Shown here: positions 8,789 through 33,875 of the stretch, one piece after another
Numbering within the stretch: the first letter of the stretch is position 1
How the letters are laid out: every line of letters begins with the position of its first letter
Origin: Bacilli bacterium
GTDB taxonomy: Bacteria; Bacillota_I; Bacilli_A; RFN20; CAG-826
Assembly: GCA_050952725.1 (NCBI GenBank)
Contig: JBMNLN010000001.1
Location: 880,108 to 944,107 of the forward strand
DNA: 64,000 nt
Reading direction: 5' to 3'
The notes under the pieces: generated by a model
What the model was told of the DNA's origin: nothing
Database searches by the model: none
The model's input: only the letters and a program-made list of their open reading frames with translations
Position numbers and translations under genes: made by a program

Positions 8789-9931
8789 ATGAGAAAGATG
8801 AAAGAGAACAAGCATCGCCTTACTCCCATGGAGAAAGAAAAATTTCTTCAACTGATTGAAGGATTACAACTTCCTGAATCCTTTGATATTAACTTCATCT
8901 ATGAAATGTATGAGACGGTGCTCGAGGGATTAGGCGAAGTCGAGCAAAAAAGTGACCTTCTTCGAATGGAAATCGTCGATCATCCTAAGATTGTCTATTA
9001 TTTGCTGGGCGAACATTATTACTATACATTTGGGGTTCAACCGCCGAAAGTCGCTGAACTATTAACGAATACCCAATATCAATCTTTCCTTTTAAGTAGT
9101 GCCTTGGATAAATACTTAACCAACGGACACCTCGAATATAAATTGGCTCAGCAATATTCGCCTTTTTCTCCCCCGATATCGACCTTGGAACTCTACTTAA
9201 ATTTCACCCTTGGCATCCTCACTCGCTTCAAGAAGAGGGAACCAACTAAAACATTAATTGTCGATACCATGACCAAAGCTTTAACTTTAGGTAAGGGAAT
9301 AATCAACCTCTTGAAAGACGGTTTTGAAACTGAGGCCTTCGCCATCTGGCGCACCTTACATGAAACGGAGTGCGTTTTAATTCTGCTTGATCGCTATCAA
9401 ACTCCCGCAATCCAAGCTTATCTAACCCACTTAAATTATGGTCTTGCATTTCGCGGGGGAATCACGGATAAAGAAAAAAACGATCAAGTCTTTGCGCAAA
9501 TCAAAGAGAAAATGCGCGAGCACGGCTTAAAGAGCAAGGACATGAAACGCTTTATCGAATATGGTTGGCTTTACGACATTCCAGGAATTGATTTTTCGAC
9601 TGATTACAAACTCAACTTCCGCGATGGTTTAGAAAAAGTTGCGGGATTAAGCGCCTATAGTCGCAACTACGAAATGGCTAGTGAAGTCGCTCACTCTTCC
9701 CCATTATTAATTTATGCTAAAGATACGTTTTTTGGTTCGATTGCTCTAATTAATCTCTACGAATCCTTCTTCCGAATTGAAGAAATCTTCCGCAAAGTCT
9801 ACCTTTCAGCGGCTTCTGATTTGGAAAAACGACAATATGATTTAATGCGTCGGATTTATTCAGGCAGTATGAAGGTGATTCATGAGCGCGAAGTCAAAAA
9901 ATACTTGCGAAAATTCGGTAAAAGAAAATAG
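8789..9931 (+). CDS. hypothetical protein, translationally coupled to addA
   Basis: The first ATG (8789) lies 1 nt after the addA TAA. The ORF track uses TTG at 8780, which would overlap addA. The product is 380 aa with no motif I recognise, and a terminator follows. Confidence 0.4.
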   Translation: MRKMKENKHRLTPMEKEKFLQLIEGLQLPESFDINFIYEMYETVLEGLGEVEQKSDLLRMEIVDHPKIVYYLLGEHYYYTFGVQPPKVAELLTNTQYQSFLLSSALDKYLTNGHLEYKLAQQYSPFSPPISTLELYLNFTLGILTRFKKREPTKTLIVDTMTKALTLGKGIINLLKDGFETEAFAIWRTLHETECVLILLDRYQTPAIQAYLTHLNYGLAFRGGITDKEKNDQVFAQIKEKMREHGLKSKDMKRFIEYGWLYDIPGIDFSTDYKLNFRDGLEKVAGLSAYSRNYEMASEVAHSSPLLIYAKDTFFGSIALINLYESFFRIEEIFRKVYLSAASDLEKRQYDLMRRIYSGSMKVIHEREVKKYLRKFGKRK

Positions 9932-20453: not shown

Positions 20454-20500
20454 TATACTGCTCACTAGGCGGTAGTTGATGAGAAAAGAGGAAAAAATCT

Positions 20501-21001
20501 ATGATTACGATTACTATCTTAGGCCTTGATCACTATGTGACTGGGGAAATCTCGAAGCAAGCGATTCCCGCGCTTAGTCAAATGCTTCGCATTCCCGAAA
20601 CCGACATCTTATTTTTTGGCCCAGAAGGCGGTCTTTATTTTCAGGGAGTCGATCAAACTTCTTGGCAAGGAGTGATCATCGTCACCCTGCCCGAAACTTT
20701 AAAAAATAAAGAACGAGATATCGCTGCTTATCTGTTGACCAGTACCAGCGATTCGCTTTTAAATTTATCGGTGGAATTCCATTATTTCGCCACGGGAAGT
20801 TACTACGAACGCGTCAATGAAGATTATCCCCGTTTCCTGCGCGAAGATGACCTCCAGCAATTGGAAGCCGATGAAGAAAACGATGATGCTGGAGTTGATG
20901 AAGAAGAACACCAAAGCGGTGAGGAAGTTTATCACGGCAACGCTTTTGCCGATTTCGAAGAAAGAGCAAGAGCAGCTGGCCACAATCTCGATGAAGATTA
21001 A
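20501..21001 (+). CDS. hypothetical protein with a strongly acidic C-terminal tail
   Basis: 166 aa with good RBS spacing (gaggaaaaaatctATG). The last ~60 aa are D/E-rich (EADEENDDAGVDEEEHQSGEE). Confidence 0.4.
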   Translation: MITITILGLDHYVTGEISKQAIPALSQMLRIPETDILFFGPEGGLYFQGVDQTSWQGVIIVTLPETLKNKERDIAAYLLTSTSDSLLNLSVEFHYFATGSYYERVNEDYPRFLREDDLQQLEADEENDDAGVDEEEHQSGEEVYHGNAFADFEERARAAGHNLDED

Positions 21002-21061
21002 CGGGACATCCCCGCGATTTTTCCAGTAACAAAAGCGATTGGTAATAAACCTAATTTGCAC

Positions 21062-21095
21062 GAGGAACTGCATGAAAACACAGTTCCTTTTTCTT
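21062..21095 (+). terminator. Rho-independent terminator separating the acidic-protein gene from the rsmB-like gene
   Basis: Stem gaggaactg-catgaaaaca-cagttcct followed by TTTTTCTTT. Confidence 0.5.
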
Positions 21096-21139
21096 TACCC
21101 CATATCACTATCAATGGTAATATTAAATAAAGGTACGCG

Positions 21140-22438
21140 ATGATGAACTATTTAGAAGCCGCCCTCGAAATCAGCCGTTCGGTTTATCGCTCCCACCTTT
21201 CCTTAGCCAGTGTGGGACGAAACTTTTTTGCGCAGCAGCAGTTCACCAAAGAAGAGCAAAAACAAATCAATGGTTTAATCTCGTGTGAGATGCATCATCA
21301 TCTAGCGATTATCGATACTTTAGCCCGTGAAGACATCACAGTTGATGCGGATTTAGAACCAATCTTGTGGCATCTGCTAGCGAATGCGGCTTGTTACCAT
21401 CACTTTCCTCAAGCAGAAATGCTGGCGCTGGCGGGAGAGTTGTTCACCCAAAAGGAAAGTGCATTTCCTGAAGCAGAGCTGCGCGAATTACTCAAGCGCA
21501 TCGATGAACCGAAAGATTTAATTGCACCCGAATATGAAGAAGATAGCAGCGAATATCTCGGGTTGCGGTATAATACCCCGCTTTGGCTGGTGAAGATGTG
21601 GCGAAAACATCTTGGGTCCAAGGTGGCGAGTAAACTCCTCCATGCCAATCGCCGCCGCATGCAGCAAATTGTCCGGATCAATCCGATGCAGCCCAAGCAA
21701 AAGCGCGAAATTCTCGCATTCGATCAAGATTTTATAGAAGGACCAGCCGATAATACTTTAATCTATCGCGCTCGGGCTAATGTTAAACGACATCCGCTTT
21801 TCCTAGAAAAAGCGATTTTCCAGCAACGCGGAGCGATTTCGCACATCTTGAGTGAACTGGACTATACTTTGCTGGGCAATTGCTTAATCTATGAAGAGCG
21901 ACCCCAGGCGGTTTATCTCGATGTCGCCCTTTATTCACTCGGAAAATTGAAGATGGATGTCGCGGTCAGCAATGAGCGGCGCCGTTTAGATATCAACAAG
22001 ACGAGCGAAGCCTTTGGTTTAAAAAATGTCTTTGCTTTTGTCTCGCGACCAGAATCATTAATCACCCAGATTCGCGATGAATATCATTTAGTCATCGTGA
22101 TGCCCAGCAATTCTGCGTTTGATTTAATCCGCACGGTTCCGGATTTCTTCGTTCATTTCGAGCAAAGTCAGTTAGATCATTATTTAACTTTACAAAACCG
22201 AGCTTTGGAAGAATGCCGTCATTTTCTCGCTCCGGGGGGAAAAATGCTCTATTTAATCAATACGGTTTCCCAAAAAGAAGGACATGGAATCATCGTGGAA
22301 TTCTTAAAACAGCATCGCGATTTGCACTTGATCAAAGAACGGCAATTTCTTCCATTTGATCGCTTTAACACCGCCCTTTATGTGGCGATTTTAGAAAGAG
22401 AAACTAGCGCAGAAGACCATGAAGATCAACCTCTATGA
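21140..22438 (+). CDS. RsmB/Sun-family (NusB-N plus Rossmann) protein with degenerate active site
   Basis: It occupies the conserved priA...rsmB-rlmN position. The C-terminal LAPGGKMLYLINTVSQKEGHGIIVEFLKQH aligns to RsmB motif VI (LKPGG.LVYSTCS...ENE), but TCS is replaced by NTV. The motif IV DAPCSG position reads VMPSNSAF, and no DxCAAPGGK SAM motif is present. Confidence 0.55.
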   Translation: MMNYLEAALEISRSVYRSHLSLASVGRNFFAQQQFTKEEQKQINGLISCEMHHHLAIIDTLAREDITVDADLEPILWHLLANAACYHHFPQAEMLALAGELFTQKESAFPEAELRELLKRIDEPKDLIAPEYEEDSSEYLGLRYNTPLWLVKMWRKHLGSKVASKLLHANRRRMQQIVRINPMQPKQKREILAFDQDFIEGPADNTLIYRARANVKRHPLFLEKAIFQQRGAISHILSELDYTLLGNCLIYEERPQAVYLDVALYSLGKLKMDVAVSNERRRLDINKTSEAFGLKNVFAFVSRPESLITQIRDEYHLVIVMPSNSAFDLIRTVPDFFVHFEQSQLDHYLTLQNRALEECRHFLAPGGKMLYLINTVSQKEGHGIIVEFLKQHRDLHLIKERQFLPFDRFNTALYVAILERETSAEDHEDQPL

Positions 22439-23465
22439 TTATGATCGCGCTAGTTTGACTGAGCATTTAACTAACCTTGGTCAAAAGCCGTTTCGCAGCA
22501 TTCAACTCTTCAAGTGGATCTATCAAAAACAGATGGATGATTTTAATTTAATGAGCGATATTTCGGTCGCTTTTCGCGAGAAATTACTTGCCGATTATGC
22601 GTTGATTCTTCCCGAGATTAAAACCTTGCAAAACAGTGAAGACGGGACGATGAAGCTGCTTTTAACCCTCGAGGATGGCGCGGCGATTGAGAGCGTGTTA
22701 ATGCGTTATAACTATGGCAATGTCGCCTGTGTTTCCAGCCAAGTCGGTTGCAATATGGGATGTAAATTCTGCGCTTCTGGTTTGCTCAAAAAGCAGCGAA
22801 ACTTAACCACCGCTGAGATGGTCGGACAAGTTCTCGTGCTCAATCGATTGCTCGCGAGGGAGAAAACCCCAGCACGCGTCACTCATGTCGTGGTGATGGG
22901 CACGGGCGAACCCTTTGATAATTACGAAAATGTGATGCGGTTTATTCGGCTGATCAATGATCCCCATGCTTTGAGTATCGGCGCTCGGCATATCACCGTT
23001 TCCACCTGTGGTATTCCCGAAAAGATTCGCCGCTATGGCCGAGAAGGTCTGCAGGTTAATTTGGCGATTTCCTTGCATGCTGCCAACGATGAACTACGCG
23101 ATCAAATTATGCCGATTAATCGCGCTTATCCTTTGAAAAAACTCATTGATGCCATCTTAGATTATGAGAAAAATGCTGGTCGGCGCATCACTTTTGAATA
23201 TATTCTGCTCGCGGGAGTCAATGATTCTTTACACGATGCGGATGCGCTGGCCCAATTGATTAAACCGACCTTCGCTTATGTCAATTTAATCCCCTATAAC
23301 GAAGTTGCGGAAATTCCCTTTCGGCGCTCGGCCGAAGCAGTGGTCACCGCCTTCTTTGACCGATTAAAAAAACGGGGAGTGAATGTGACGATTCGGCGTG
23401 AATTCGGGGCCGATATCGATGCTGCCTGTGGGCAACTGCGCGCGCAGGAGGAGGGCGAAAAATGA
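22419..23465 (+). CDS. rlmN: 23S rRNA/tRNA A2503 C2-methyltransferase (radical SAM)
   Basis: CNMGCKFCASG radical-SAM cluster motif plus the downstream RlmN/Cfr pattern (GEPFDNYENV, TVSTCGIP). Confidence 0.9.
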   Translation: MKINLYDYDRASLTEHLTNLGQKPFRSIQLFKWIYQKQMDDFNLMSDISVAFREKLLADYALILPEIKTLQNSEDGTMKLLLTLEDGAAIESVLMRYNYGNVACVSSQVGCNMGCKFCASGLLKKQRNLTTAEMVGQVLVLNRLLAREKTPARVTHVVVMGTGEPFDNYENVMRFIRLINDPHALSIGARHITVSTCGIPEKIRRYGREGLQVNLAISLHAANDELRDQIMPINRAYPLKKLIDAILDYEKNAGRRITFEYILLAGVNDSLHDADALAQLIKPTFAYVNLIPYNEVAEIPFRRSAEAVVTAFFDRLKKRGVNVTIRREFGADIDAACGQLRAQEEGEK

Positions 23466-24205
23466 AGTTAATTGGTAATTATTACACGCAAGTTGATCGC
23501 GGGTTGGAACGCAAAACCAACGAGGACTTTGCCGTGATTTTAACTAATTCCCGTGGCGATTTACTCTTGCTTGTCGCCGATGGGATGGGCGGACATGTCC
23601 AAGGGAATTTAGCGGCCAAAATCGCCATTGATACTCTGGCGCAAGCCTTTAAAAGGAAAAGCCGTTTTTGGGGCAAGAATGCTCCAGGGCGGTGGTTGAG
23701 CAAATTCGTGCGTATCGCCAATGCTGAAATTCATCGCGAAGCGGAGAATAATCCCGAATATCGCCAGATGGGAACGACCCTAGTGGCGGCGATTATTCGC
23801 CCGAGGGATTTAACCATTGTCAATGTTGGCGATTCCCGGGCTTACTGGCTCAACCAGGGCAAATTAGAAATGCTCACCGAAGACCAGACTCTGGTTGCCT
23901 ATTTAGCCAAAACGGGTCAAATTAAACCCGAAGAAAAGAAGACCCATCCCCGCCGCCATGTGCTGATTAACGCCCTAGGGGTGGCCCCTTCGGTCAGCCT
24001 TGATCTATTCCGTTTTCCTTATCATGATCAAGATGTGCTGTTGTGCTCGGATGGACTTTATAATCTGGTCAATGATCAAGAGATCGAAGCAGTGCTTTTA
24101 ACCTCGGATTCCGTCGAAGAAAAAGCCGCCTTACTGGTGACCAATGCGAATAAAAATGGCGGGCTTGATAATATTGCAATCGCCCTGTGGGAGCGGGAAT
24201 TATGA
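23462..24205 (+). CDS. stp: PP2C-family Ser/Thr phosphatase
   Basis: LLLVADGMGGH motif I, ~247 aa, paired with a downstream kinase as in the stp-prkC operon. Confidence 0.85.
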   Translation: MKLIGNYYTQVDRGLERKTNEDFAVILTNSRGDLLLLVADGMGGHVQGNLAAKIAIDTLAQAFKRKSRFWGKNAPGRWLSKFVRIANAEIHREAENNPEYRQMGTTLVAAIIRPRDLTIVNVGDSRAYWLNQGKLEMLTEDQTLVAYLAKTGQIKPEEKKTHPRRHVLINALGVAPSVSLDLFRFPYHDQDVLLCSDGLYNLVNDQEIEAVLLTSDSVEEKAALLVTNANKNGGLDNIAIALWEREL

Positions 24206-25089
24206 GACCGCTTGGTCAAGTCATCGATGAACGCTATCGGATTACCGCCTTTTTGGGCGCCGGGGGTATGGCGGAAGTCTATGAAGCCAAAGATATCATC
24301 ATGCGCCGTTTGGTCGCGGTCAAAATCATCAAAGATGAAGTGCTGCATCACCCGCAAAATGTGATGCGGTTTGAACGCGAAGCACGGGCGGCGGCTTCCC
24401 TCGATCATCCCAACATTGTCGCTGTGTTAAATCTTGGCAAAGATCAAGGGCACCCCTATATGGTCAATGAATTAATCAACGGCATTAATCTTGCGACCTC
24501 CTTAGAAATTCGCACCCGTTTTACTTATGTCGAAGTTCTCGACATCATCAATCAATTATGTAATGCGGTAATCGCCGCGCATGAAAATGGGGTGATTCAT
24601 CGCGATATCAAACCAGCCAATATTTATATGACCCCGGCGGGTATTTTAAAATTAGGGGATTTTGGCATCGCCCACATCGTCAGTTCCCCCCGGATGACTT
24701 CCTCGCAAGATATCATCGGTTCGGCTCACTATCTGGCTCCCGAGGTTTCCCAAGGAAAATCCTCTTCGGTGCTCAGCGATATCTATGCGATGGGGATTAC
24801 CTTATTCGAACTCGCCACTGGTCATCTCCCGTTTGAAGGGGAAACGAATATCGCTATCGCAGTCAAACATATCAAAGAGCGCTTCCCCAGTCCGAGAAAA
24901 TTCATCCCTACTTTTCCGAAAGCATTAGAGAAGATTATCCTCAAAGCTTGTAAGAAAAATCCCCGCGATCGCTATCAATCGGTGCGCGCCTTGCAAAAGG
25001 AGATCCAAACGCTGATGGAAAATCCTGACTTACTCAAGCCAAGACAATCATTTCTCGTGCGGTTTTTTGGCTTTGCCACTGAAGAATGA
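24202..25089 (+). CDS. Hanks-type Ser/Thr protein kinase, kinase domain only
   Basis: Subdomain motifs are all present: GAGGMAEVY...AVKII (ATP-binding Lys), HRDIKPANI, DFG, APE. Length is ~295 aa with no TM or PASTA repeats. The start is at the ATG with a GGAG RBS. The ORF-track GTG start at 24187 would overlap stp. Confidence 0.8.
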   Translation: MRPLGQVIDERYRITAFLGAGGMAEVYEAKDIIMRRLVAVKIIKDEVLHHPQNVMRFEREARAAASLDHPNIVAVLNLGKDQGHPYMVNELINGINLATSLEIRTRFTYVEVLDIINQLCNAVIAAHENGVIHRDIKPANIYMTPAGILKLGDFGIAHIVSSPRMTSSQDIIGSAHYLAPEVSQGKSSSVLSDIYAMGITLFELATGHLPFEGETNIAIAVKHIKERFPSPRKFIPTFPKALEKIILKACKKNPRDRYQSVRALQKEIQTLMENPDLLKPRQSFLVRFFGFATEE

Positions 25090-25132
25090 GTTATAATATA
25101 AAAAGAACATCACCAATTTGAGGAGGTGCCCT

Positions 25133-25798
25133 ATGGCTCGGAAAGTATTGATTGCTCCCTCGCTCCTGGCGGCGGATTTTACCCAGTTAGCCGTTGAGAT
25201 TCAACGCGTGCAAGATGCGGGGCTTTCCTATCTGCATTTTGATGTGATGGATGGTCATTTTGTCCCCAATATCAGCTTTGGTATTCCGGTTTTAAAAGCG
25301 GTGAAAAGCCTGCAAACGGGCCTTATTTTAGATGTCCATTTGATGATTACGCATCCCGAAAGGTATGCGGAAGCCTTTATTCAAGCCGGCGCGGATATCA
25401 TCACCTTTCATGTGGAGACGATTCCGCATCTTGAGGGTTTTTTAGCGTTAGTGGCCCTGATTAGAAAACATGGCGCGCAGGTGGGCTTGTCGCTAAGACC
25501 CGCGACTCCGATTAGCGCGCTTGAACCATATCTCGCCGATCTCGATTTAGTGTTGGTGATGAGTGTCGAACCCGGGTTTGGCGGTCAAAGTTTTCTCCCG
25601 GCAACTTTAATGAAAATTGAAGAACTGGTAAAAATTCGCACCGCACAACATCTCAATTTTCTCATTGAAGTCGATGGGGGAATTAATGAATTGACAGGGG
25701 CGAAAGCCATAGAAGCTGGGGCCGATCTCCTCGTCGCTGGCTCATATTTATTTGGACAACAAGACTTTAACAAGCGCGTGGAGAAATTAAAAAGATGA
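25133..25798 (+). CDS. rpe: ribulose-phosphate 3-epimerase
   Basis: LLAADFTQLAVE...HFDVMDGHFVPNISFG and VMSVEPGFGGQ motifs. The start is at MARKVLIAPS with a GGAGG RBS. Confidence 0.9.
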   Translation: MARKVLIAPSLLAADFTQLAVEIQRVQDAGLSYLHFDVMDGHFVPNISFGIPVLKAVKSLQTGLILDVHLMITHPERYAEAFIQAGADIITFHVETIPHLEGFLALVALIRKHGAQVGLSLRPATPISALEPYLADLDLVLVMSVEPGFGGQSFLPATLMKIEELVKIRTAQHLNFLIEVDGGINELTGAKAIEAGADLLVAGSYLFGQQDFNKRVEKLKR

Positions 25799-26457
25799 TC
25801 AATAACGCCACCTCAACTGGATTATTTATCGCTGTCTTTCTCTTTTTGATGATCGACCTCTTTGCCAGTTATGAAAGTTTCCGCAGACAGCAATCCCTGC
25901 CCTTTAACTTTTGGAATTCCCTGCCCTTTGAACTCTCGCAAGGGGCAGACAAAAACTTTCGTCCACTTCATTACGGTTTAATCTTTCTCACTTTTGGCAG
26001 TTTTATCCTCTTTCCTTTTGTCGTTTTACCAGCCAGTGCTGCTAATTTCTATTATTCAATCATCATCTACGTGATGATGACGATTTCCGGCTTAGTTATG
26101 TCCTCCTTGTTTATCATCAACATGAATAACTATCGCTTGCATATTCTGGCGGTGGCGATTCTTTTTGCCTCGACCATTGGCGAAGCGGTCGGACTTTGTC
26201 TTTATCTATTAAAATCCCCCTTTGGTCCCTATCCCCAGATTTTAGGTTTTCTCGCCTTAATTCCGGGAATTCTTACCTTGTTATTGGCCTTTAATCCGCG
26301 CCTGAGCAAGTGGCCGATTATGGATAAGCGCGAACTCCAAGATGGGACGATCCAAATCCTGCGACCCAAGCGTTTTGTCCTAGCCTATACCGAATGGGCC
26401 TTAATCATTCTCAATCTCGCCTTTTTGCTCTATTTCTTCATCGTCACCGTGATTTAA
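25795..26457 (+). CDS. integral membrane protein of unknown function (about 6 TM)
   Basis: 220 aa, hydrophobic throughout, start overlaps the rpe stop (ATGA). I recognise no motif. Confidence 0.4.
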   Translation: MINNATSTGLFIAVFLFLMIDLFASYESFRRQQSLPFNFWNSLPFELSQGADKNFRPLHYGLIFLTFGSFILFPFVVLPASAANFYYSIIIYVMMTISGLVMSSLFIINMNNYRLHILAVAILFASTIGEAVGLCLYLLKSPFGPYPQILGFLALIPGILTLLLAFNPRLSKWPIMDKRELQDGTIQILRPKRFVLAYTEWALIILNLAFLLYFFIVTVI

Positions 26458-26484
26458 TTTCGCTAACTAGGAGGGGGAACATCG

Positions 26485-27441
26485 ATGATTACAATCTATC
26501 GTCAAGTCGAGGGAAATTCAGTCGCCGAAAGCGGCGATATTTCTTTGTTGGAAAATCTTACTCCAGGAGTTTGGATCGATGTGATCGCTCCTTCCTATGA
26601 GGACTTAATCGCCCTGTCGAAGGCGACTAACATCAATCAAGAACTGCTCTTAACCACCCTCGATAGCGAGGAGAGTTCCCACATTGAATCCGAAGGGGAT
26701 GATTTACTCATCGTCCTCGATGCTCCAATTGTCGTCGATCATCCCGGGGCTAAATATGAGACGATTCCAATTTCTATCGCCTATAACGATGATTATCTAG
26801 TGACGATTACGGTAGCGGATAAGCAGATTGCGCCGATGAACCTCGCCAAAAACCGCAAGTTTAATCCTGCTAGTCACACGCGTTTTACTTTAATGGTCTT
26901 CAATCACCTCGCCGCCTTATATATTAATTATCTGAAAAAAATCGAAGCCAAAACCCGCGCGATTTCCATTCGTTTGCGTTCATCATATAAAAATAAGGAG
27001 TTGTATGAACTGCTCGATTTTTCGACGACCATGGTCTATTTTTCCACCTCGATTAACGCTGATATCGCCACCTTAATGCAGTTAAAGCGCTTGCCTAGTT
27101 ATAAAAAAGAGGTGGAAATCGATCTGATTGAAGACGTGGAGATTGAATTAAATCAAGCCCGCGACATGGCCACGGTCTATCGCGATGTCCTCTCGGGCAC
27201 AATGGATGCGTTTGCTTCGGTTATCTCTAACAATTTAAACATCGTGATGAAGACTTTTGCCATCGTTTCAATTGTCTTATCCGTTCCTTCGATCATCTCG
27301 GGAATTTATGGGATGAACGTCACTTTACCCCTGAGTGAAAATCGCGCTGCTATTTGGATTTTACTTGCTATTTCTGGCGTGCTGGCCCTCATTGCCGGCT
27401 TGGCCCTGTTCCTCTATCAGTGGATCATTCGTCGCAAATAA
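26485..27441 (+). CDS. corA: CorA-family magnesium/cobalt transporter
   Basis: 318 aa with two C-terminal TM helices and the GMN signature (SGIYGMNVTLP). Confidence 0.7.
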   Translation: MITIYRQVEGNSVAESGDISLLENLTPGVWIDVIAPSYEDLIALSKATNINQELLLTTLDSEESSHIESEGDDLLIVLDAPIVVDHPGAKYETIPISIAYNDDYLVTITVADKQIAPMNLAKNRKFNPASHTRFTLMVFNHLAALYINYLKKIEAKTRAISIRLRSSYKNKELYELLDFSTTMVYFSTSINADIATLMQLKRLPSYKKEVEIDLIEDVEIELNQARDMATVYRDVLSGTMDAFASVISNNLNIVMKTFAIVSIVLSVPSIISGIYGMNVTLPLSENRAAIWILLAISGVLALIAGLALFLYQWIIRRK

Positions 27442-27470
27442 CTTCTCCAATTGTCTCAAGATAAAAAAAA

Positions 27471-27503
27471 CTGCTTTCTTCAGAGAGAGAGCAGACTTTT
27501 TTT
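27471..27503. terminator. bidirectional Rho-independent terminator between corA and rpmB
   Basis: Stem ctgctttct/agagagcag (one G-U pair) flanked by an A-run and a T-run. Confidence 0.45.
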
Positions 27504-27533
27504 AGTGATGATCTCGTTTGGAAAAACGCCTGA

Positions 27534-27722
27534 TTATCGCTTGGTTTTATTCAAAGTGCGATAAGCACGTGCAGACATGCGGACGGTGCGCACTTGCCCG
27601 TCAACATTGATCTTAAACGGCTGTAAATTCACATTCCAACTCCGCCGGGTTGCCCGTAGAGAGTGAGAGCGATTATTGCCGCTGATACGACGTTTTCCGG
27701 TCATCGGACAAACTCTTGCCAT
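27534..27722 (-). CDS. rpmB: 50S ribosomal protein L28
   Basis: MARVCPMTGKRRISGNNRSHSLRATRRSWNVNLQ is the canonical L28 sequence, 62 aa. The ORF-track start at 27770 is an upstream in-frame extension. Confidence 0.85.
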   Translation of the reverse strand: MARVCPMTGKRRISGNNRSHSLRATRRSWNVNLQPFKINVDGQVRTVRMSARAYRTLNKTKR

Positions 27723-27791
27723 CTTGCCACCTCCTCGATGTTTAATGCTTTTTGATATTATCACAATCAAAGTTTAAGAGCAAGAGTTAGC

Positions 27792-28235
27792 TTAGAGTTT
27801 CACTTTGGGGAAGCGGATTTGATATTCTTCTTTGGAGATTAGATGCTGGCACTTGGTAGTTACTGCTTTATAGATCTCCATCTCCGCATCCATCGGTAAA
27901 TAGCGCTCATGACCTTTACTGGTGTAGAAGAGGAGGATTTTATGCTTTTGGCTATACTCATGATCAATATAGAGAATTTCGCTGTAATAATAGACGAGGA
28001 CTTTGTTGCCCTTGTGATGAGTTAAGGCTTTCTTGCCAATTTCATACCAGTTCATTTTGATGCCGAGAATCATCGTAATCAGGGCGATAACTAGCGGAAT
28101 GCTGACAATTAAAATATCGCGACCGGTGGGCGGCCACTTATAGGAGCCAAACATCAAATAAAAAATCGTCGCCATCACCAGTCCGGCAATCGTATAGCTA
28201 GTAATTGTCTTTTTGGCAGAAGCGAAAACTTTCAT
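27792..28235 (-). CDS. small membrane protein, bacterial PH-domain (bPH_2/YdbS-like) type
   Basis: 147 aa with two N-terminal TM helices followed by a soluble beta-rich domain (KVLVYYYSEILYIDHEY...), matching the bPH_2 architecture. It is divergent from the jet operon. Confidence 0.4.
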   Translation of the reverse strand: MKVFASAKKTITSYTIAGLVMATIFYLMFGSYKWPPTGRDILIVSIPLVIALITMILGIKMNWYEIGKKALTHHKGNKVLVYYYSEILYIDHEYSQKHKILLFYTSKGHERYLPMDAEMEIYKAVTTKCQHLISKEEYQIRFPKVKL

Positions 28236-28291: not shown

Positions 28292-28320
28292 TTAAGAACA
28301 GCCTGTTTATATGGTAAAAT
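28292..28320 (+). promoter_or_regulatory. putative sigma-A promoter of the jetABC-like operon
   Basis: TTAAGA-17 nt-TGgTAAAAT (extended -10), about 30 nt upstream of the GGAGGAGG RBS and the ATG at 28349. Confidence 0.35.
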
Positions 28321-28348
28321 AACAGTGTTTGTTGGAGGAGGAAAAAAA

Positions 28349-29782
28349 ATGAGTCTGTTTACGATTATACCCGAAAACTTTTTTTCCGTTTTAGCCTCCC
28401 CCAATCGCGCGATTTACGCCGATGCCCTCCTCGTCCTTTATCAAGCGCTGGCGACCGATGAGTTGACGATTAAGAAAAGCGATTATCTGCGCACCTTAAA
28501 AGATAAAGCCACCAATGAGATTCTCCTGTTTGATTTAGCCGCTGATGGCGAAGTCGAAGATGAAGAAGAAATGAGCCAAGTCTCCAGCCAGACCTTAACT
28601 TATAAAACTTCGGCTATTATCCGCCGCTTAGAAGAAACCGGCTGGATCGATATACAAATTGATCCCAATGACTTTGAAGAATATATCGCGCTCCCTTCCT
28701 ATGCGATCTCCTTTTTGCAATTGCTCGATGAAATCATCTCCAAACGCGAGGGGACTTATGTCTCCTTAGTCCACGCGACATATAGCGAGTTGCGCCTCGA
28801 AGATGATGATCCAGATGAATTCATGTATGCGACGCTGATGCGCGCTTACGAGAATACACGGGAACTGCGGACGGAACTGGTGACTTTGGGACATTCGATT
28901 CGCATCTTCCAAAATCGCTTAGGGCGGGTCTTCTCCACCAACTCGATTCTCCGGGATTATTTTGATAATTACAAAGAGCATGTCTCAGATCGTTATTACC
29001 ATCCATTGAAAACTTTTGACTCGGTCGCCAAATTTAAACGGCCGATTATCACGATTTTGCAACGCTGGCTCCGCGATGAAGAAATCCGCGCTTTACTCGT
29101 TAACCAAGCGATGATTTACACGCGGAAAAAAGATGCGCTTGAAGTCGAACGCGACTTAATCGAAAAGATCAACTACATCTGCGATATGTATGAGACTCTC
29201 AATGAGATGATCAATCAAATCGATGACAAACATCGCGAATATACCAAAGCCTCGGCGAGTAAAATTTTATATTTAAACGCCCAGGATAAGACGATTAAAG
29301 GACATCTGGATAATATTTTCCGCTACTACGCGGAAGGAGTTTTAACTGGTTCAGGGATTATTCCGATTTTGCGCCAGATGCAAGAGGCGGTGATCTTAAA
29401 TCAACAAGGAATGGTCGATAGTGATTCGATTACCTTGCCGATCGTGCGCCGTTACCGCCAAGAGAGCGAACCTTTGGCAATTATCGACTTCGGTGATGTC
29501 TCGGAGATGTTAATGCGCGGATTTCTCGATGAGACGCGCAATATTTTCACCGATGAGCGGGTTTATAGTTTTATGGAAACCGCCTTTGGCGATGCTTCCG
29601 AGATGAAGATTGAAGAGATTCCCTTGCCGGATTTTGACGCGTTTATCCTCTTGATTCTGGCTTCGCTTAAAACCAATGATGAACATTGTTTTTATACAAT
29701 TGATATGGAGGAGGGCAATGTGCTTTCCCAAGGCTATTCTCTCCCGCGCTTTACTTTTAAACGAAAGGAATTGGAAGTTTAA
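28349..29782 (+). CDS. JetA/MksF-like (DUF3375-type kleisin-like) subunit
   Basis: 485 aa, the typical DUF3375 length. The N-terminus (LASPNRAIYADALLVLYQAL) fits the family pattern. It is the first gene of a tightly coupled F-E-B-ordered operon with a MukB-type ATPase. Confidence 0.55.
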   Translation: MSLFTIIPENFFSVLASPNRAIYADALLVLYQALATDELTIKKSDYLRTLKDKATNEILLFDLAADGEVEDEEEMSQVSSQTLTYKTSAIIRRLEETGWIDIQIDPNDFEEYIALPSYAISFLQLLDEIISKREGTYVSLVHATYSELRLEDDDPDEFMYATLMRAYENTRELRTELVTLGHSIRIFQNRLGRVFSTNSILRDYFDNYKEHVSDRYYHPLKTFDSVAKFKRPIITILQRWLRDEEIRALLVNQAMIYTRKKDALEVERDLIEKINYICDMYETLNEMINQIDDKHREYTKASASKILYLNAQDKTIKGHLDNIFRYYAEGVLTGSGIIPILRQMQEAVILNQQGMVDSDSITLPIVRRYRQESEPLAIIDFGDVSEMLMRGFLDETRNIFTDERVYSFMETAFGDASEMKIEEIPLPDFDAFILLILASLKTNDEHCFYTIDMEEGNVLSQGYSLPRFTFKRKELEV

Positions 29783-29784
29783 TT

Positions 29785-30414
29785 ATGTTTGAAGAAGAAT
29801 TTGCTGCCTTACCCCGAAGTGAACAAGACCAATTTGCTGCGGTAGTTAATAGTTTACTCTCGAGCTCTTTTATCGTCCGCGACTTGTTTGACCGGCGCGA
29901 AAAGACGATGAAGATCAACCCCCAATTTCGCTTTTTAGAACGTTACTATGATTTGGTCAATAGTTATTTAGCCTATGCTGGCTGGGAAATGGAGCGCGAT
30001 TTAATCAATGGGGTCTTTGCCATCTACAATACCTATGAGCAAAATCGGTACCGTCTCGACCGCGAGACCTCGTTAATCGCTTTTGTCCTACGTTTGATTT
30101 ATGAGAGCGAGAAAAGCGAAAGCAGCCAAACGGGCGAGTCGATTTATGTGACTACCCCCACGGTGGTTAAAGTGATGCTTGACCGGGGAATTACCCTGCC
30201 TGGAAGAAGGCTTTCAGGGCGCTTAATCGGTCGGGCTTTACGGGAATTAAATCGCTTTAATATCATCGCCCGCGTCAGCGGTTCTTTCGATGAGGGCAAT
30301 GTGGCTTTTTATATCACCCCGGCAATTATCTACGCGATTGATAATGATAAGATCGCCGCGATGTCCAGCGCTCTTGATGAACTCGCCGCTCGCGAAGGAG
30401 GAAGTGCAGCATGA
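29785..30414 (+). CDS. JetB/MksE-like (DUF4194-type KITE) subunit
   Basis: 209 aa. It starts 2 nt after the upstream stop and overlaps the downstream ATPase gene by 4 nt (ATGA). The size and position match MksE/JetB. Confidence 0.5.
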   Translation: MFEEEFAALPRSEQDQFAAVVNSLLSSSFIVRDLFDRREKTMKINPQFRFLERYYDLVNSYLAYAGWEMERDLINGVFAIYNTYEQNRYRLDRETSLIAFVLRLIYESEKSESSQTGESIYVTTPTVVKVMLDRGITLPGRRLSGRLIGRALRELNRFNIIARVSGSFDEGNVAFYITPAIIYAIDNDKIAAMSSALDELAAREGGSAA

Positions 30415-33400
30415 AACTCTTAAAACGCGCGAAAGTGATCAATTGGCACTATTTTTGGAATGAGTTAATCAACTTTGAACAAATCGTCTTTTTAACCGGA
30501 TTAAATGCCTCAGGAAAATCGACATTAATCGATGCTTTACAGGTGATTCTCTTAGGCGATACCAGCGGTCGCTTTTTCAATAAAGCGGCGATGGATAAAT
30601 CCAATCGGACTTTAAAAGGTTATCTCCGGGGAGAACTCGGCGATAATATCGAAGGCGGCTTTCATTATCTGCGCAATGGGCGCTTTACTTCCTATTTAGC
30701 CTTAGAATTCTTCGACGATAAAACCGCGCAATCCTTTACGGTCGGAGCGGTTTTTGATGTCTATGAGGATGGCGGGGTCGATCATCGCTTTTTTAATCTC
30801 GATCAGCGGATTCCCGAAAATGAATTCATCCTCGATAATGTCCCGATGGATTACAAGACTTTAGCAGCTTACTTGGGCGAGCATTATCCCGGCCAATTCA
30901 CTTTCTTTGATTCTAATCGCCAGTATCAAGACTTTATTAAACGCCGTTTCGGCGGCTTAAAGGATAAGTATTTCTCCCTGTTGAAAAAATCGGTCTCCTT
31001 TACCCCGATTACCGATATCACCACCTTTATTACCGAATATGTCTGCGATCCGCAGACCAACGTCGATATCATTCCGATGCAGGAGAATATCCTCCAATAT
31101 AAACGTCTGGAAAACGAAGCCTTAATCATGAAAGCTCGCCTCGAGCGCCTGCAAGAAATCAGTGAGACCTTCACTTTGTTTCAACGGCAACAAGAGCAGA
31201 TGCAAGTCGCCGCTTATCAGGTGGAAAAGGCTGGCTATCACAACGATAAACAGCGACTCGATTCCTATTATGAGCAAATTCGTTTAGCCAAGAGTCGCTT
31301 GATTAACATTGATGTCGACTTAGCGGAAACCGAAAAGTTAATCGCCGATTTAAATCGGAAGAAAACTCGTTATATTCAAGATAAAGCGAATTCTGATACT
31401 TATCGCTTAACCGATGAATTGACGGAACAAAAAGCGGAGGCCGAACAAAAAATCGCCGAACTTTTACAAGCGAAAACCCTAATCAAGCAAAACTTAAACG
31501 GCTATTTGGCGAACTTCATCGCCGTCGCTCAAAGCGTGATTGATACATTAGGTGATTTTAAGACCGAACATTTAGACGCTGACCAGCGCGAGGATTTTCG
31601 CCTCCTACAAGAAAGCGCCTTCAAGGTTTTAAATCTTTCGATGAAACTCCGCGATCAATATCTCGAGACCTTAGAGAATCTGCTCGCGGATGAGCTTTTA
31701 GCCTGGCGTGATGCCCTTTCCCTTTTTCAACAACATCTCGCCGCCCTTTCCCTCTCCTTAGGCAAGGGGATTACCAAACGCGAACAACTCCTAGCCGTGC
31801 TTAAACAACAAGAAGTCGATATGCATGCGGGGGGCAAATCCTATGAATGGAAACTCTCGGCGATTCGCCGCAGCCTACAAGATGAATTAACCCGTCGGCA
31901 TGGAACCGAAGTTTCGGTGATGATCTTCGCTGACTTATGCGATATTAAAACTCCGAAATGGGTCAATGCGATTGAGGGTTATCTCTATAATCAAAAATTC
32001 CATTTCTTTGTCGATCCTGTCTATTATATGGAAACTTATGGAATTCTTCGCGACCTGCTGGATAAACATGAGTACTATGGCTTAAATTTAGTCGATCAAG
32101 ACCGCATCATCGAACGGAACTTCATCGCCGAGCCAGGTTCGCTGGCCGAGGAGATTGTCACCGATCATCTCGGGGCGCGCGCCTATGCCAACTTCTTAAT
32201 CGGGCGCTTGCGCAAATGCCAAAATCTCAATGAGGCTCGTAACTCCGGTCATGGGATTACCGCCGAGGGCGACCTCTATCGCAACTTCGGGTTTGGCAAA
32301 ATCAATCCCCGGCTTTATCGCGAACATGTGATCGGGCGCAGCGTGGGCAGCGAACAAATCGCCGCCAAACAAGCCGAAATCGCCCTTAGTCAAAGCCTGC
32401 TCGCGTCCTTGCGTGTTCTCCATAGCAAAGTTACCGATGCTAGCCAATTGGAGATTATCAATACCAACGAGATTAACAGTATTGTCAATACCCTTGGCAA
32501 ACTGCAAACCCTACCGGGCTTAGAAAAAACGGTGGCTTACTTAAAAGAAGAACTCTCCAAGCACGATTTGACCCAACTTGAATCTTTGCAAAAACGCATC
32601 GAGGCAATCGATGAGGATTTAAAGGATTTAGAAGGAGAAAGAGCTTCGTTCTTTGAAGAAAAAGGCCGGCTGAACACTTCGATTCAAACTTTAAAAGAAG
32701 AACGGATCCCCGAAGCGGAAAAAGCTTGCGATGAGAAACTCAAGAGTTTACATGAAGACTACGATGTCTTCCTCGTCAATGAGACGGCCGAACCCCTGTT
32801 TGAAAAAATGCTTCATGAAGGGAAGACGCCGCTGGAGATCATCGCCGAATACAACGTGGCTTTTACCCACGCGCAATATCTTTACAATAACTTATTCACG
32901 CAGTTGACGAAGTTGCGAAAAGATTATGTGCGCGATTATCGTCTAACTTATGAGACCGATTTACGCGATAATGCGATTTATCAAAATGAATTAAATGATA
33001 TTCGCGAAGTCCAACTGCCAGCCTATGAAGGCAAGATTCACGATGCCTATGAGAAGGCGGTCACCCAATTTAAAAATGACTTCATCGCTAAGATTCGCTC
33101 CGCGATTGAAACGGTGGAAGATCAAATTGATGAACTCAATCATGCGCTGAGTGCCTCGACTTTTGGCAATGACTCCTATCAATTTACGGTTCGTCCCTCG
33201 TCGACCTATCGGGCCTACTATGATATGATCACCGATGATTTACTCTTGGAAATCGATCAAGACGATTCCGCGTTTTTAGAAAAGTACGATCAAGTCTTAA
33301 AGGATCTATTTGCTCAAATCGCCCTGGCTGGCGATCGCGAAAACAATGCGACGATTCTAGCCAATGTCGAGAAGTTCACCGATTATCGCAATTACTTGGA

Positions 33401-33794
33401 CTTCGACTTAGTCGTCAAAGATAAAGCGGGTAACGAACAACGGCTCTCGAAGATGATTAAAAAGAAATCGGGTGGGGAAACGCAAACCCCGTTCTACATC
33501 TCGGTTCTAGCATCGTTTGCGCAACTCTATAATGTCAATGATACCGGTGAATTATCGAATACCATTCGCCTGATTATCTTCGATGAAGCGTTCTCGAAGA
33601 TGGACTCGGGGCGGATTCGCGAATCGATTCGCTTGCTGAGAAAATTCGGGTTACAAGCGATTGTCTCGGCTCCTTCCGATAAGGTGGCGGATATCTCAAA
33701 TCTCGTCGACGAAACCCTCGTCGTCTTACGGGGCAAGAACGCTTCCCACGTTCGCCTCTATGCCGAAGCGGATAAAATCACCGCTGAATTATAA
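30411..33794 (+). CDS. JetC/MksB/MukB-type SMC-like ABC ATPase
   Basis: N-terminus MKLLKRAKVINWHYFWNELINFEQIVFLTGLNASGKSTLIDALQVILLGD matches the MukB/MksB head (INWxxF ... G.NGSGKST..DA). Long E/K/L/Q-rich coiled coils flank a central non-coil hinge (~31900-32340). A C-terminal signature-like KSGGET (33465-33482) and Walker B LIIFDEAF (33570-33593) are present. Length is 1127 aa. Confidence 0.75.
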   Translation: MKLLKRAKVINWHYFWNELINFEQIVFLTGLNASGKSTLIDALQVILLGDTSGRFFNKAAMDKSNRTLKGYLRGELGDNIEGGFHYLRNGRFTSYLALEFFDDKTAQSFTVGAVFDVYEDGGVDHRFFNLDQRIPENEFILDNVPMDYKTLAAYLGEHYPGQFTFFDSNRQYQDFIKRRFGGLKDKYFSLLKKSVSFTPITDITTFITEYVCDPQTNVDIIPMQENILQYKRLENEALIMKARLERLQEISETFTLFQRQQEQMQVAAYQVEKAGYHNDKQRLDSYYEQIRLAKSRLINIDVDLAETEKLIADLNRKKTRYIQDKANSDTYRLTDELTEQKAEAEQKIAELLQAKTLIKQNLNGYLANFIAVAQSVIDTLGDFKTEHLDADQREDFRLLQESAFKVLNLSMKLRDQYLETLENLLADELLAWRDALSLFQQHLAALSLSLGKGITKREQLLAVLKQQEVDMHAGGKSYEWKLSAIRRSLQDELTRRHGTEVSVMIFADLCDIKTPKWVNAIEGYLYNQKFHFFVDPVYYMETYGILRDLLDKHEYYGLNLVDQDRIIERNFIAEPGSLAEEIVTDHLGARAYANFLIGRLRKCQNLNEARNSGHGITAEGDLYRNFGFGKINPRLYREHVIGRSVGSEQIAAKQAEIALSQSLLASLRVLHSKVTDASQLEIINTNEINSIVNTLGKLQTLPGLEKTVAYLKEELSKHDLTQLESLQKRIEAIDEDLKDLEGERASFFEEKGRLNTSIQTLKEERIPEAEKACDEKLKSLHEDYDVFLVNETAEPLFEKMLHEGKTPLEIIAEYNVAFTHAQYLYNNLFTQLTKLRKDYVRDYRLTYETDLRDNAIYQNELNDIREVQLPAYEGKIHDAYEKAVTQFKNDFIAKIRSAIETVEDQIDELNHALSASTFGNDSYQFTVRPSSTYRAYYDMITDDLLLEIDQDDSAFLEKYDQVLKDLFAQIALAGDRENNATILANVEKFTDYRNYLDFDLVVKDKAGNEQRLSKMIKKKSGGETQTPFYISVLASFAQLYNVNDTGELSNTIRLIIFDEAFSKMDSGRIRESIRLLRKFGLQAIVSAPSDKVADISNLVDETLVVLRGKNASHVRLYAEADKITAEL

Positions 33795-33796
33795 AA

Positions 33797-33825
33797 AAAT
33801 GACCACATTTGTGGTCTTTTTTTCC
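33797..33825 (+). terminator. Rho-independent terminator after the jetC-like gene
   Basis: Perfect hairpin gaccacatttgtggtc followed by TTTTTTT. Confidence 0.6.
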
Positions 33826-33875
33826 AGAGAAATCTCGGAAATTATCATGAAAAAATCAAATTCAAGGAGGTACTT

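What the first reader, a model, noticed from the sequence alone, without database searches (positions are those of the whole stretch)
28292..33825. Three-gene MukFEB/MksFEB (Wadjet JetABC-like) SMC-kleisin-KITE operon with no JetD/MksG nuclease partner
Three co-directional genes sit behind their own extended -10 promoter and end at a perfect terminator. Their junctions are tight (a 2-nt gap, then a 4-nt ATGA overlap). They encode a 485-aa DUF3375-sized protein, a 209-aa DUF4194-sized protein and a 1127-aa MukB/MksB/JetC-type ATPase. The ATPase has the INWHYF...GLNASGKST head, long coiled coils, a central hinge, KSGGET and LIIFDEAF. This kleisin-KITE-SMC order is that of mukFEB, mksFEB and jetABC. 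In described Wadjet systems a fourth gene, jetD/mksG, follows jetC. It encodes a toprim/Topo-VI-like nuclease and is required for plasmid restriction. Here glgC starts 82 nt downstream after a terminator, and no toprim-like ORF exists anywhere in the 64 kb. The system is therefore one of three things. (i) It is a nuclease-less MksBEF condensin. That would be unusual in a low-GC Gram-positive, which normally relies on SMC-ScpAB. (ii) It is a Wadjet whose effector is encoded elsewhere. (iii) It is a variant using a different, unrecognised effector. Its placement also suggests accessory status. It lies between a divergent bPH-domain membrane protein gene and the glg operon, in a gap between housekeeping loci.
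Basis: partly seen in the sequence, partly recalled or inferred. Interest (0 to 1): 0.75.

Follow-up and report, generated by a model that had tools for sequence, protein, structure and literature searches.

The report
Nuclease-less Wadjet kept as core gene
This is a complete three-gene Wadjet-type DNA-motor operon (jetABC) that has lost its DNA-cutting partner JetD; a whole lineage of uncultured gut bacteria has inherited it at one fixed housekeeping position, so it looks like a plasmid-defence system turned into a chromosome-handling machine.

Summary
jetA (28349-29782), jetB (29785-30414) and jetC (30411-33794) form one tight operon, ending at a terminator 82 nt before glgC. Profiles place all three in type I Wadjet (JetC1 1106 bits), not SbcC, RecN or MukB.

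No JetD exists in the 64-kb window, or within 10 kb of jetC in 80 related species. Positive controls score E 1e-147 to 1e-210.

The "accessory" reading is wrong. In those species jetABC sits at the same place (rpe, rpmB, then jetABC, then glgCDA, leuS). It diverges in step with its neighbours and is under strong purifying selection (dN/dS 0.05-0.07). The ATPase motifs are intact. The JetC tree mirrors the neighbour-gene tree.

The nearest JetD-bearing relatives (34% JetC identity) sit in variable contexts, one a defence island. One nested lineage (L094) has lost jetABC cleanly, so it is conserved but dispensable.

Best reading (about 0.55): a domesticated, nuclease-free Wadjet acting as an MksBEF-like loop-extruding SMC complex. 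This would be an independent natural case of the proposed route from Wadjet to MksBEF/MukBEF.

I could not test whether these genomes keep SMC-ScpAB or an unlinked JetD. Interest 0.6.

The parts
28292..28320 (+). promoter-like site, TTAAGA-17 nt-TG-TAAAAT (extended -10)
   Evidence: Consensus match only; the count of such sites in the region is not above the shuffled expectation.
28349..29782 (+). jetA, kleisin (477 aa from ATG 28349; the longest ORF starts at GTG 28325)
   Evidence: Pfam PF18982 JetA 301.6 bits, covering the profile end to end. PADLOC JetA1 420 bits. RBS GGAGGAGG upstream. dN/dS 0.069.
29785..30414 (+). jetB, KITE subunit (209 aa)
   Evidence: Pfam PF13835 DUF4194/JetB 62.3 bits. 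PADLOC JetB1 213 bits. A JetB profile hits solved JetB chains 8dk1_E and 8as8_C. dN/dS 0.045.
30411..33794 (+). jetC, SMC-family ATPase (1127 aa): head, coiled-coil arm, hinge, arm, head
   Evidence: PADLOC JetC1 PDLC00519 1106.6 bits over residues 1-1122. Pfam AAA_29 plus SbcC_Walker_B. The only solved-structure sequence hits are JetC. The AF2 model shows arms 221-497 and 647-915 and a hinge at about 500-645. Foldseek top hits are JetC, MukB, Smc5/6 and condensin, plus SMC hinges. dN/dS 0.047.
33801..33823 (+). intrinsic-terminator-like hairpin GACCACA-TT-TGTGGTC followed by a T-run, ending the operon 53 nt before glgC

Best explanation
jetABC here is a domesticated type I Wadjet that lost its Toprim nuclease JetD in the ancestor of a lineage of uncultured, reduced-genome Bacilli (RFN20/CAG-826 and relatives). 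It has since been inherited vertically as a near-core chromosomal operon.

Inferred mechanism, by homology with solved JetABC and MukBEF complexes: the JetA kleisin dimerises and bridges two JetC dimers, each carrying a JetB KITE dimer. ATP binding and hydrolysis at the intact JetC heads drives DNA loop extrusion. With no JetD the complex cannot cut DNA. It therefore most likely acts as an MksBEF-like chromosome-folding or segregation motor rather than as a plasmid-cleaving system.

Shown here: gene content, family membership, absence of JetD locally, the fixed locus, co-phylogeny with host genes, purifying selection, and intact motifs and architecture. Inferred: complex assembly, loop extrusion and a chromosomal role.
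For: Family: JetA, JetB and JetC type I profiles match full length. Solved-structure hits are JetC and JetB only. The model has an SMC fold with an SMC-type hinge.

No JetD: the JetD profile finds nothing in the window (best E = 16) or within 10 kb of jetC in 80 species. It scores E 1e-147 to 1e-210 on controls and detects a wild JetD in L091, at 7e-49 with the first profile and 2.9e-195 with the second. JetA, JetB and JetC have the same lengths as canonical ones, so no nuclease domain is fused to them.

Core-like behaviour: of 78 loci with a jetC ORF, 54 have glgC directly downstream, 18 have a two-TM gene and then usually glgC, 3 have leuS, and none has JetD. Of the 63 loci with sequence upstream of jetA, 49 have rpmB or p147 within three genes. 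Identity to the window tracks the neighbours: JetC median 52%, GlgA 50%, Rpe 53%; Spearman 0.67-0.79 with GlgC, GlgD and GlgA. The JetC tree mirrors the GlgCDA tree, and the jet-bearing loci form one clade in 100 of 100 bootstraps. GC content is the same as the flanks. The clade is essentially absent from 2.9 million viral or mobile contigs.

Contrast: the nearest JetD-bearing relatives, L172 and L173 (JetC 34%), are jetABCD operons in two different contexts. One sits among GmrSD, a PLD-helicase restriction enzyme, an SNF2 helicase, Macro, integrases and recombinases.

Maintained function: dN/dS is 0.069, 0.045 and 0.047 for jetA, jetB and jetC, against 0.062-0.12 for glgC, glgD, glgA, corA and rpe. 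Walker A is intact in 75 of 75 sequences, KSGGETQ in 74 of 75, and Walker B and the D-loop in 76 of 76. jetABC persists in loci that lost glgCDA (L036, L069, L084).

Precedent: P. aeruginosa MksBEF and M. smegmatis MksBEF are MksG-less chromosomal condensins. Reviews propose that MksBEF and MukBEF arose from Wadjet by loss of JetD (PMC10586767; bioRxiv 10.1101/2025.03.10.642339; PMC11329512).
Against: No functional data exist, and the organisms are uncultured. I could not search whole genomes of the clade, so an unlinked JetD is not excluded, and the presence of SMC-ScpAB is unknown.

One lineage nested in the clade (L094) has cleanly lost jetABC. The operon is therefore not indispensable, which fits an auxiliary role better than a sole condensin.

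The extreme N-terminus of JetB (M-F-E-E) is strongly conserved (M1 0.95, F2 0.96). It could correspond to the JetD-docking motif, but the test was inconclusive.

In the deepest branch and part of the clade, a two-TM protein gene occupies the JetD position. This hints at a partner whose function is unknown.

dS is near saturation (1.1-1.9), so the dN/dS values are approximate.
Confidence: 0.55

Rival explanations
1. It is still an immune system that works without cutting. JetABC recognises small circular DNA by complete loop extrusion. It then compacts, silences or mis-segregates that DNA, as proposed for eukaryotic Smc5/6 on episomes. Alternatively it tethers the DNA through a membrane partner.
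For: All sensor components of type I Wadjet are intact and under selection. Relatives carry a two-TM protein gene in the JetD position, and it is present in the deepest branch. The operon can be lost (L094), as expected for a non-essential defence function. Smc5/6-type restriction without cleavage is discussed in PMC10586767.
Against: The window itself has no fourth gene; a terminator and then glgC follow jetC. Fixed position, co-phylogeny and housekeeping-like evolutionary rates across about 80 species are atypical for defence genes. The closest true Wadjet relatives sit in variable or island contexts. No nuclease-free Wadjet immunity has been described in the papers I searched.
Confidence: 0.2
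2. It is a conventional Wadjet whose nuclease is encoded elsewhere in the genome. That nuclease could be JetD or another DNase recruited in trans.
For: Only 64 kb of this genome and 10-kb flanks in relatives could be searched. The JetB N-terminus is strongly conserved and might still dock a partner.
Against: In every JetD-bearing locus examined here, jetD directly follows or overlaps jetC. None of the 77 clade loci with sequence downstream of jetC has it. An unlinked arrangement would have to be conserved across family-level divergence. It would also leave unexplained the shift from island-borne to a fixed housekeeping context.
Confidence: 0.13
3. It is a decaying remnant of a Wadjet system that lost JetD and no longer functions.
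For: JetD is absent, and one lineage has lost the whole operon.
Against: There are no frameshifts, and the proteins are full length in 72 of 78 loci (the rest are cut by contig ends). dN/dS is 0.05-0.07, and the catalytic motifs are invariant across 46-81% divergence.
Confidence: 0.02

Closest known systems
Type I Wadjet JetABCD / MksBEFG / EptABCD (E. coli GF4-3, P. aeruginosa PA14, C. glutamicum, M. smegmatis EptABCD)
   Same: Same three protein families, in the same order and with the same tight coupling: JetA kleisin, JetB KITE, JetC SMC ATPase. Best profile matches are JetA1, JetB1 and JetC1. The only solved-structure sequence hits are JetC and JetB. The hinge matches doughnut-type SMC hinges, as reported for type I JetC (bioRxiv 10.1101/2025.03.10.642339).
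   Different: No JetD Toprim nuclease, which is the effector required for plasmid cleavage. Not in a defence island or on a mobile element. Fixed chromosomal position and vertical inheritance across a whole clade. The Firmicute JetB proteins, with or without JetD, lack the N-terminal tail of about 30 aa that carries the IFDR motif in proteobacterial JetB.
Island-borne jetABCD of uncultured relatives (L172, L173, L091), the nearest JetD-bearing relatives found
   Same: Closest outgroup on the JetC tree (JetC 34%, JetB 33%, JetA 26-27% identity). Same subunit sizes.
   Different: These have jetD overlapping jetC by 4 nt. They sit in two unrelated contexts, one a defence or mobile island.
MksBEF condensins without MksG (P. 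aeruginosa MksBEF; M. smegmatis MksBEF)
   Same: A three-gene kleisin-KITE-SMC operon with no nuclease gene. The literature proposes derivation from Wadjet by loss of JetD, with a role in chromosome organisation alongside SMC (PMC10586767; PMC11329512; PMC7485682).
   Different: Different phylum (Bacillota), with an apparently independent origin inside type I Wadjet of Firmicutes. The kleisin is the PF18982 JetA type with no DUF3375 hit, and the KITE does not reach Pfam MksE (PF21980). Coexistence with SMC-ScpAB is unknown. No functional data.
MukBEF of gamma-proteobacteria
   Same: An SMC-kleisin-KITE complex, hypothesised to be a domesticated Wadjet that became the chromosomal condensin. The fold search recovers MukB among the top hits.
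   Different: No sequence membership. MukB_N scores 17.2 bits against a cut-off of 23, and there are no MukE or MukF hits. JetC here is much shorter than MukB.

Membership tests
Wadjet type I (JetABCD) | JetA-type kleisin | tested here: met
   PF18982 301.6 bits (cut-off 26.2), profile positions 2-434 of 434. PADLOC JetA1 420 bits.
Wadjet type I (JetABCD) | JetB KITE (DUF4194) | tested here: met
   PF13835 62.3 bits (cut-off 32.7). PADLOC JetB1 213 bits. A JetB profile hits solved JetB chains.
Wadjet type I (JetABCD) | JetC SMC-family ATPase with Walker A, Walker B, signature motif, coiled-coil arms and hinge | tested here: met
   PADLOC JetC1 1106.6 bits full length. Motifs intact in the window and across the clade. 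AF2 architecture and Foldseek hits.
Wadjet type I (JetABCD) | JetD (CAP plus Toprim nuclease, PF09983) encoded in the operon | tested here: not met
   An 82-nt spacer with a terminator, then glgC. The JetD profile's best window hit is E = 16. There is no hit in the flanks of 80 clade loci. Controls score 1e-147 to 1e-210. Precomputed Pfam on the called genes shows no JetD or Toprim.
Wadjet type I (JetABCD) | Defence-island or mobile context with patchy distribution | tested here: not met
   Same housekeeping locus in about 80 species, co-phylogeny with neighbours, and one partial hit in viral contigs.
Wadjet type I (JetABCD) | ATP-dependent restriction or cleavage of small circular DNA | not testable with these tools
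   Needs biochemistry or a surrogate-host plasmid assay.
MksBEF-type nuclease-less condensin | Kleisin-KITE-SMC operon lacking MksG/JetD | tested here: met
MksBEF-type nuclease-less condensin | Sequence membership in the MksF (DUF3375) and MksE (PF21980) families | tested here: inconclusive
   No DUF3375 or MksE hit at E <= 1 for the window proteins. The JetB of outgroup L172 does carry a precomputed MksE hit. Which Pfam families the P. aeruginosa and M. smegmatis proteins fall in is from my memory and was not checked here.
MksBEF-type nuclease-less condensin | Acts on the chromosome (organisation or segregation), usually alongside SMC-ScpAB | not testable with these tools
No SMC-like ORF appears in the roughly 1.6 Mb of flanks held, which says little either way.
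MukBEF | MukB, MukE and MukF family membership | tested here: not met
   MukB_N scores 17.2 bits, below the cut-off of 23. No MukE or MukF hits.
   PF13558 SbcC_Walker_B is a generic head motif shared by JetC. The full-length match is to JetC1. Solved-structure sequence hits are JetC only. The hinge matches SMC hinges, and Rad50 ranks far below.

The most novel reading that the evidence does not exclude
In this reduced-genome lineage of Bacilli a domesticated Wadjet has taken over from SMC-ScpAB as the main chromosome-organising SMC complex. That would repeat, independently and in Firmicutes, the replacement of SMC by MukBEF in gamma-proteobacteria. It would also preserve a living intermediate that is still recognisably type I JetABC. 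In the ancestor, a membrane protein stood where JetD used to be.
Probability: 0.12. Interest if true: 0.85.

Novelty: new variant of a known kind. Interest (0 to 1): 0.6.

Why it matters
The SMC field currently hypothesises, without a clear natural intermediate, that chromosomal condensins of the MukBEF/MksBEF type arose when Wadjet plasmid-defence systems lost their nuclease (PMC10586767; bioRxiv 10.1101/2025.03.10.642339).

This clade offers that intermediate. Its proteins still score as bona fide type I JetA, JetB and JetC. Yet they behave genomically like housekeeping genes across many species, and the JetD-bearing, island-borne sister group is identifiable.

That makes the transition testable: what changes in JetABC once JetD is gone, and does it act on the chromosome? 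It also exposes a blind spot. Defence-system annotators that require all four genes would not be expected to report these loci, while per-protein labels such as "Wadjet anti-phage protein JetA" could mislead readers into calling them immune systems.

Tried and rejected
1. JetB N-terminal IFDR motif as a marker of JetD dependence. Proteobacterial JetB has a tail about 30 aa longer than all Firmicute JetBs, including those with JetD, so the test cannot discriminate.
2. The two-TM fourth gene as a degenerate JetD. hhalign gives 0.6% probability, so this is rejected. There is no PADLOC hit. Only 5 database homologues were found. The AF2 model is unusable (pLDDT 49.5), so I ran no fold search on it.
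3. Searching for unlinked JetD in the clade with the closest JetD (from L091). The 120 listed hits were all close relatives of that query (at least 70% identity), so the search was uninformative.
4. SMC/ScpAB presence. No SMC-like ORF appears in the flanks held. The RFN20 genomics papers and one supplement do not mention smc, scpA or scpB.
5. Deep et al. 2022 (PMC9637719) and Petrushenko et al. 2011 (PMC3179180) are not held in the library.
6. A look-up of the TTG-start ORF 8780-9931 failed.
7. The Rfam scan of the window found nothing.
It gave presence/absence examples (L092, L094) but not a prevalence estimate.
Full report
OBSERVATION. The three ORFs are real and sit where stated. jetA ends at 29782, jetB is 29785-30414, and jetC is 30411-33794. 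All are on the + strand, with a 2-nt gap and then a 4-nt ATGA overlap. The longest jetA ORF starts at GTG 28325. The true start is almost certainly ATG 28349 (477 aa): a GGAGGAGG ribosome-binding site lies 6 nt upstream, gene callers on independent assemblies give 477 aa, and the PADLOC JetA profile starts at residue 9. A TG-extended -10 promoter-like site (28292-28320) and a hairpin plus T-run (33801-33823) flank the operon. The number of such matches is not above the shuffled expectation, so they are consistent with function, not proof. glgC begins at 33876. GC content (0.44-0.46) matches the flanks.

WHAT THE PROTEINS ARE. JetA matches Pfam PF18982 (301.6 bits, whole profile). JetB matches PF13835/DUF4194 (62.3 bits). 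JetC has AAA_29 plus SbcC_Walker_B heads. Against PADLOC the best models are JetA1 (420 bits), JetB1 (213 bits) and JetC1 (1106.6 bits, residues 1-1122 on profile positions 1-1090 of 1097). MukB_N falls below its cut-off, and nothing matches MukE, MukF, DUF3375 or MksE. NCBIfam has no specific model. The only solved structures found by sequence are JetC (8as8, 9qxt, 8dk1) and, with a profile, JetB (8dk1_E, 8as8_C).

An AlphaFold2 model of JetC (mean pLDDT 70.6; arms and hinge 85-93, heads poor) shows the layout head, arm (221-497), hinge (about 500-645), arm (647-915), head. Foldseek returns JetC, MukB, Smc5/6 and condensin at the top. It also returns doughnut-type SMC hinges for the hinge region, and Rad50 ranks far lower. 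One correction: the kleisin is of the JetA (ex-DUF5716) type, not DUF3375.

NO JetD. I took real JetDs from three Firmicute plasmid jetABCD loci (Cohnella, Rossellomorea, Butyrivibrio). I built a profile and searched all six-frame segments of the window and of every locus held. The controls scored E 1e-183 to 1e-210, and nothing else scored better than E about 0.9. The same profile detected a wild JetD in L091 at 7e-49. A second profile of 8 sequences, including the closest JetD lineage, gave a best window hit of E = 16 and again nothing in the clade loci. Precomputed Pfam hits on called genes across the window show only housekeeping functions and no Toprim. JetA, JetB and JetC have canonical lengths, so no nuclease domain is fused to them.

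THE LOCUS IS NOT ACCESSORY. A scan of one genome per species (185,579 species) with a JetC alignment found 436 relatives. The best 80 (46-81% identity) are all uncultured Bacilli, "Mollicutes" or Erysipelotrichales MAGs. They include Coprobacillus sp. CAG:826 and Ca. Alectryobacillus merdavium, which is assigned to GTDB order RFN20, family CAG-826 (PMC8035907). RFN20 genomes are small (1.5-1.9 Mb) and reductively evolved (PMC7301438, PMC10868615).

Gene-order analysis shows rpe, mp220, rpmB (reverse), p147 (reverse), jetA, jetB, jetC, glgC, glgD, glgA, leuS, coaX almost everywhere. Of 78 loci with a jetC ORF, the gene downstream is:
- glgC in 54;
- a two-TM protein gene in 18, usually followed by glgC;
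- leuS in 3;
- something else in 2;
- the contig end in 1;
- JetD in none.

JetABC identity to the window is similar to that of the neighbours (medians: JetC 52%, JetA 52%, JetB 58%, GlgA 50%, Rpe 53%, GlgC 59%, LeuS 66%). It also co-varies with them (Spearman 0.67-0.79 with GlgC, GlgD and GlgA). An NJ tree of JetC has the same two sub-clades and the same deepest branch (L092) as an NJ tree of GlgC+GlgD+GlgA. On the neighbour-gene tree the jet-bearing loci form one clade in 100 of 100 bootstraps. The clade is essentially absent from 2.9 million viral or mobile contigs; the single hit, L091, is the outgroup with JetD.

The closest JetD-bearing relatives, L172 and L173 (JetC 34%, JetB 33%, JetA 26-27%), are canonical jetABCD operons with jetD overlapping jetC. 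They sit in two unrelated contexts, one among GmrSD, a PLD-helicase restriction enzyme, an SNF2 helicase, Macro, integrases and recombinases. The simplest history is a single capture of a type I Wadjet next to glgC, loss of JetD, and then vertical descent.

IT IS MAINTAINED. Against a relative with 90% JetC identity (L089), dN/dS is 0.069 (jetA), 0.045 (jetB) and 0.047 (jetC). The neighbours give 0.062-0.069 for glgC, glgD and glgA, 0.074 for corA and 0.12 for rpe. dS is 1.1-1.9, near saturation, so the values are approximate. Across the clade, Walker A (G-x-N-x-x-GKST) is intact in 75 of 75 sequences, KSGGETQ in 74 of 75, and the Walker B DEAF and D-loop in 76 of 76. jetABC stays in place in three loci that lost glgCDA (L036, L069, L084). 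A decaying remnant is excluded.

BUT NOT INDISPENSABLE. I also ascertained loci through GlgC in JGI metagenomes, which is independent of jet. That search found L092 and L094.
- L092 is a deeper relative (JetC 39%) with jetABC, a fourth gene and glgCDA.
- L094 has the full synteny (gmk, priA... rlmN, pp2c, pkn, rpe, mp220, rpmB, then glgCDA, leuS) but only about 515 nt where p147 and jetABC should be. No remnants are detectable.

L094 nests inside the jet clade in 100 of 100 bootstraps and is sister to the distal sub-clade in 96 of 100, so this is a secondary loss. The sister group without jet (L095, L096) has cell-wall genes upstream of glgC.

THE FOURTH GENE IN RELATIVES (absent from the window). 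In 18 genome loci and in L092, a 282-342-aa protein with two N-terminal TM helices and a soluble domain directly follows jetC, at gaps of 4-84 nt. One BLAST-connected group reaches Pfam DUF3137 (30.8-34.6 bits), and L092's gene is homologous to that group (E down to 4e-16). A second group (L017, L022-L027, L041) and three singletons share only position and architecture. None hits PADLOC. A profile-profile comparison with JetD gives 0.6% probability. Its presence in the deepest branch suggests it was already there in the clade's ancestor and was lost repeatedly, including in the window plus L005 lineage and in the whole distal sub-clade. Its structure could not be predicted (pLDDT 49.5).

MECHANISM AND RIVALS. 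The most likely reading (0.55) is that JetA2-JetB4-JetC4 assembles as in solved JetABC and extrudes DNA loops using the intact ATPase. Lacking JetD it cannot cleave, so it acts as an MksBEF-like chromosome-organising motor. [quoted passage not shown] M. smegmatis has an MksG-less MksBEF beside SMC and EptABCD (PMC11329512).

The rivals are:
- nuclease-independent restriction of episomes (0.2);
- a trans-encoded nuclease (0.13);
- a dead remnant (0.02).

The strongly conserved JetB N-terminus (M1 0.95, F2 0.96) is unexplained. It might dock a partner. The IFDR comparison is uninformative because all Firmicute JetBs, with or without JetD, lack the long proteobacterial tail.

LIMITS. Two key facts are therefore unknown: whether an unlinked JetD exists, and whether SMC-ScpAB is present. 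From memory, and untested here: in B. subtilis the priA...prpC-prkC-rpe-rpmB block continues within about 12 kb to rnc-smc-ftsY, so the fate of that segment in these genomes is worth checking. The trees are NJ on a few linked genes, not species trees.

VERDICT. The finding is real and correctly identified. It is not an accessory defence island. It is a clade-wide, vertically inherited, selectively maintained, nuclease-less type I Wadjet. Conceptually this is a known kind (MksBEF-like). Here it is an apparently independent origin in Firmicutes, with an identifiable JetD-bearing sister group. I rate it a new variant of a known kind, interest 0.6.

Noticed in passing
L006:13430-14347, L022:13386-14240, L011:13434-14336, L092:8900-9928 and 15 other loci (absent from the window; the equivalent position is window 33795-33875): A fast-evolving two-TM membrane protein gene (282-342 aa; DUF3137 in one subgroup) sits directly after jetC, exactly where jetD lies in canonical Wadjet. 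It is present in the deepest branch of the clade and unrelated to JetD (hhalign 0.6%). Its function is unknown, and it may be a partner of nuclease-less JetABC.
   Followed up: partly
window 27792-28235 (-): p147 is a 147-aa two-TM protein transcribed divergently from jetA. It is conserved beside jetA in most clade loci and under purifying selection (dN 0.095, dS 2.1). It is missing together with jetABC at the L094 empty site, but also missing in some loci that do carry jet.
   Followed up: partly
window 8780-9931 (+); L022:6762-7832 (-), L017:113-1237 (-): A DUF5677 gene overlaps the end of addA in the window (addB, addA, DUF5677). Divergent DUF5677 genes sit between p147 and jetA in L022 and next to jetA in L017. 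Same-sized ORFs occupy that position in L023, L025, L026 and L041 but were not profiled. This uncharacterised family keeps turning up next to DNA-processing machines.
   Followed up: partly
L094:9124-9989: Clean empty site. A relative with the full flanking synteny has about 515 nt between rpmB and glgC and no trace of p147 or jetABC. This locus has a higher GC content than the window.
   Followed up: yes
window 1-64000: No Rfam family reaches its gathering score anywhere in the 64 kb. That includes the regions upstream of leuS (38477) and tyrS (50466), where Firmicutes commonly have T-box leaders.
   Followed up: no
L036, L069, L084 (jetC followed directly by leuS): Three clade members have lost the glgCDA glycogen genes but kept jetABC in place. 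Retention of jetABC is therefore independent of the glg operon.
   Followed up: partly
L085:707-1508 (about 3-4 kb upstream of the window start on the source contig): A HepT-like / MNT nucleotidyltransferase toxin-antitoxin pair lies just outside the window. It is the only obviously defence- or TA-like module seen near this region.
   Followed up: no
window 18261-27770: The order priA ... rlmN, PP2C phosphatase, Ser/Thr kinase, rpe ... rpmB matches the B. subtilis priA-prpC-prkC-rpe-rpmB block. From memory, that block continues to rnc-smc-ftsY in B. subtilis. Here jetABC-glgCDA follows rpmB instead.
   Followed up: no
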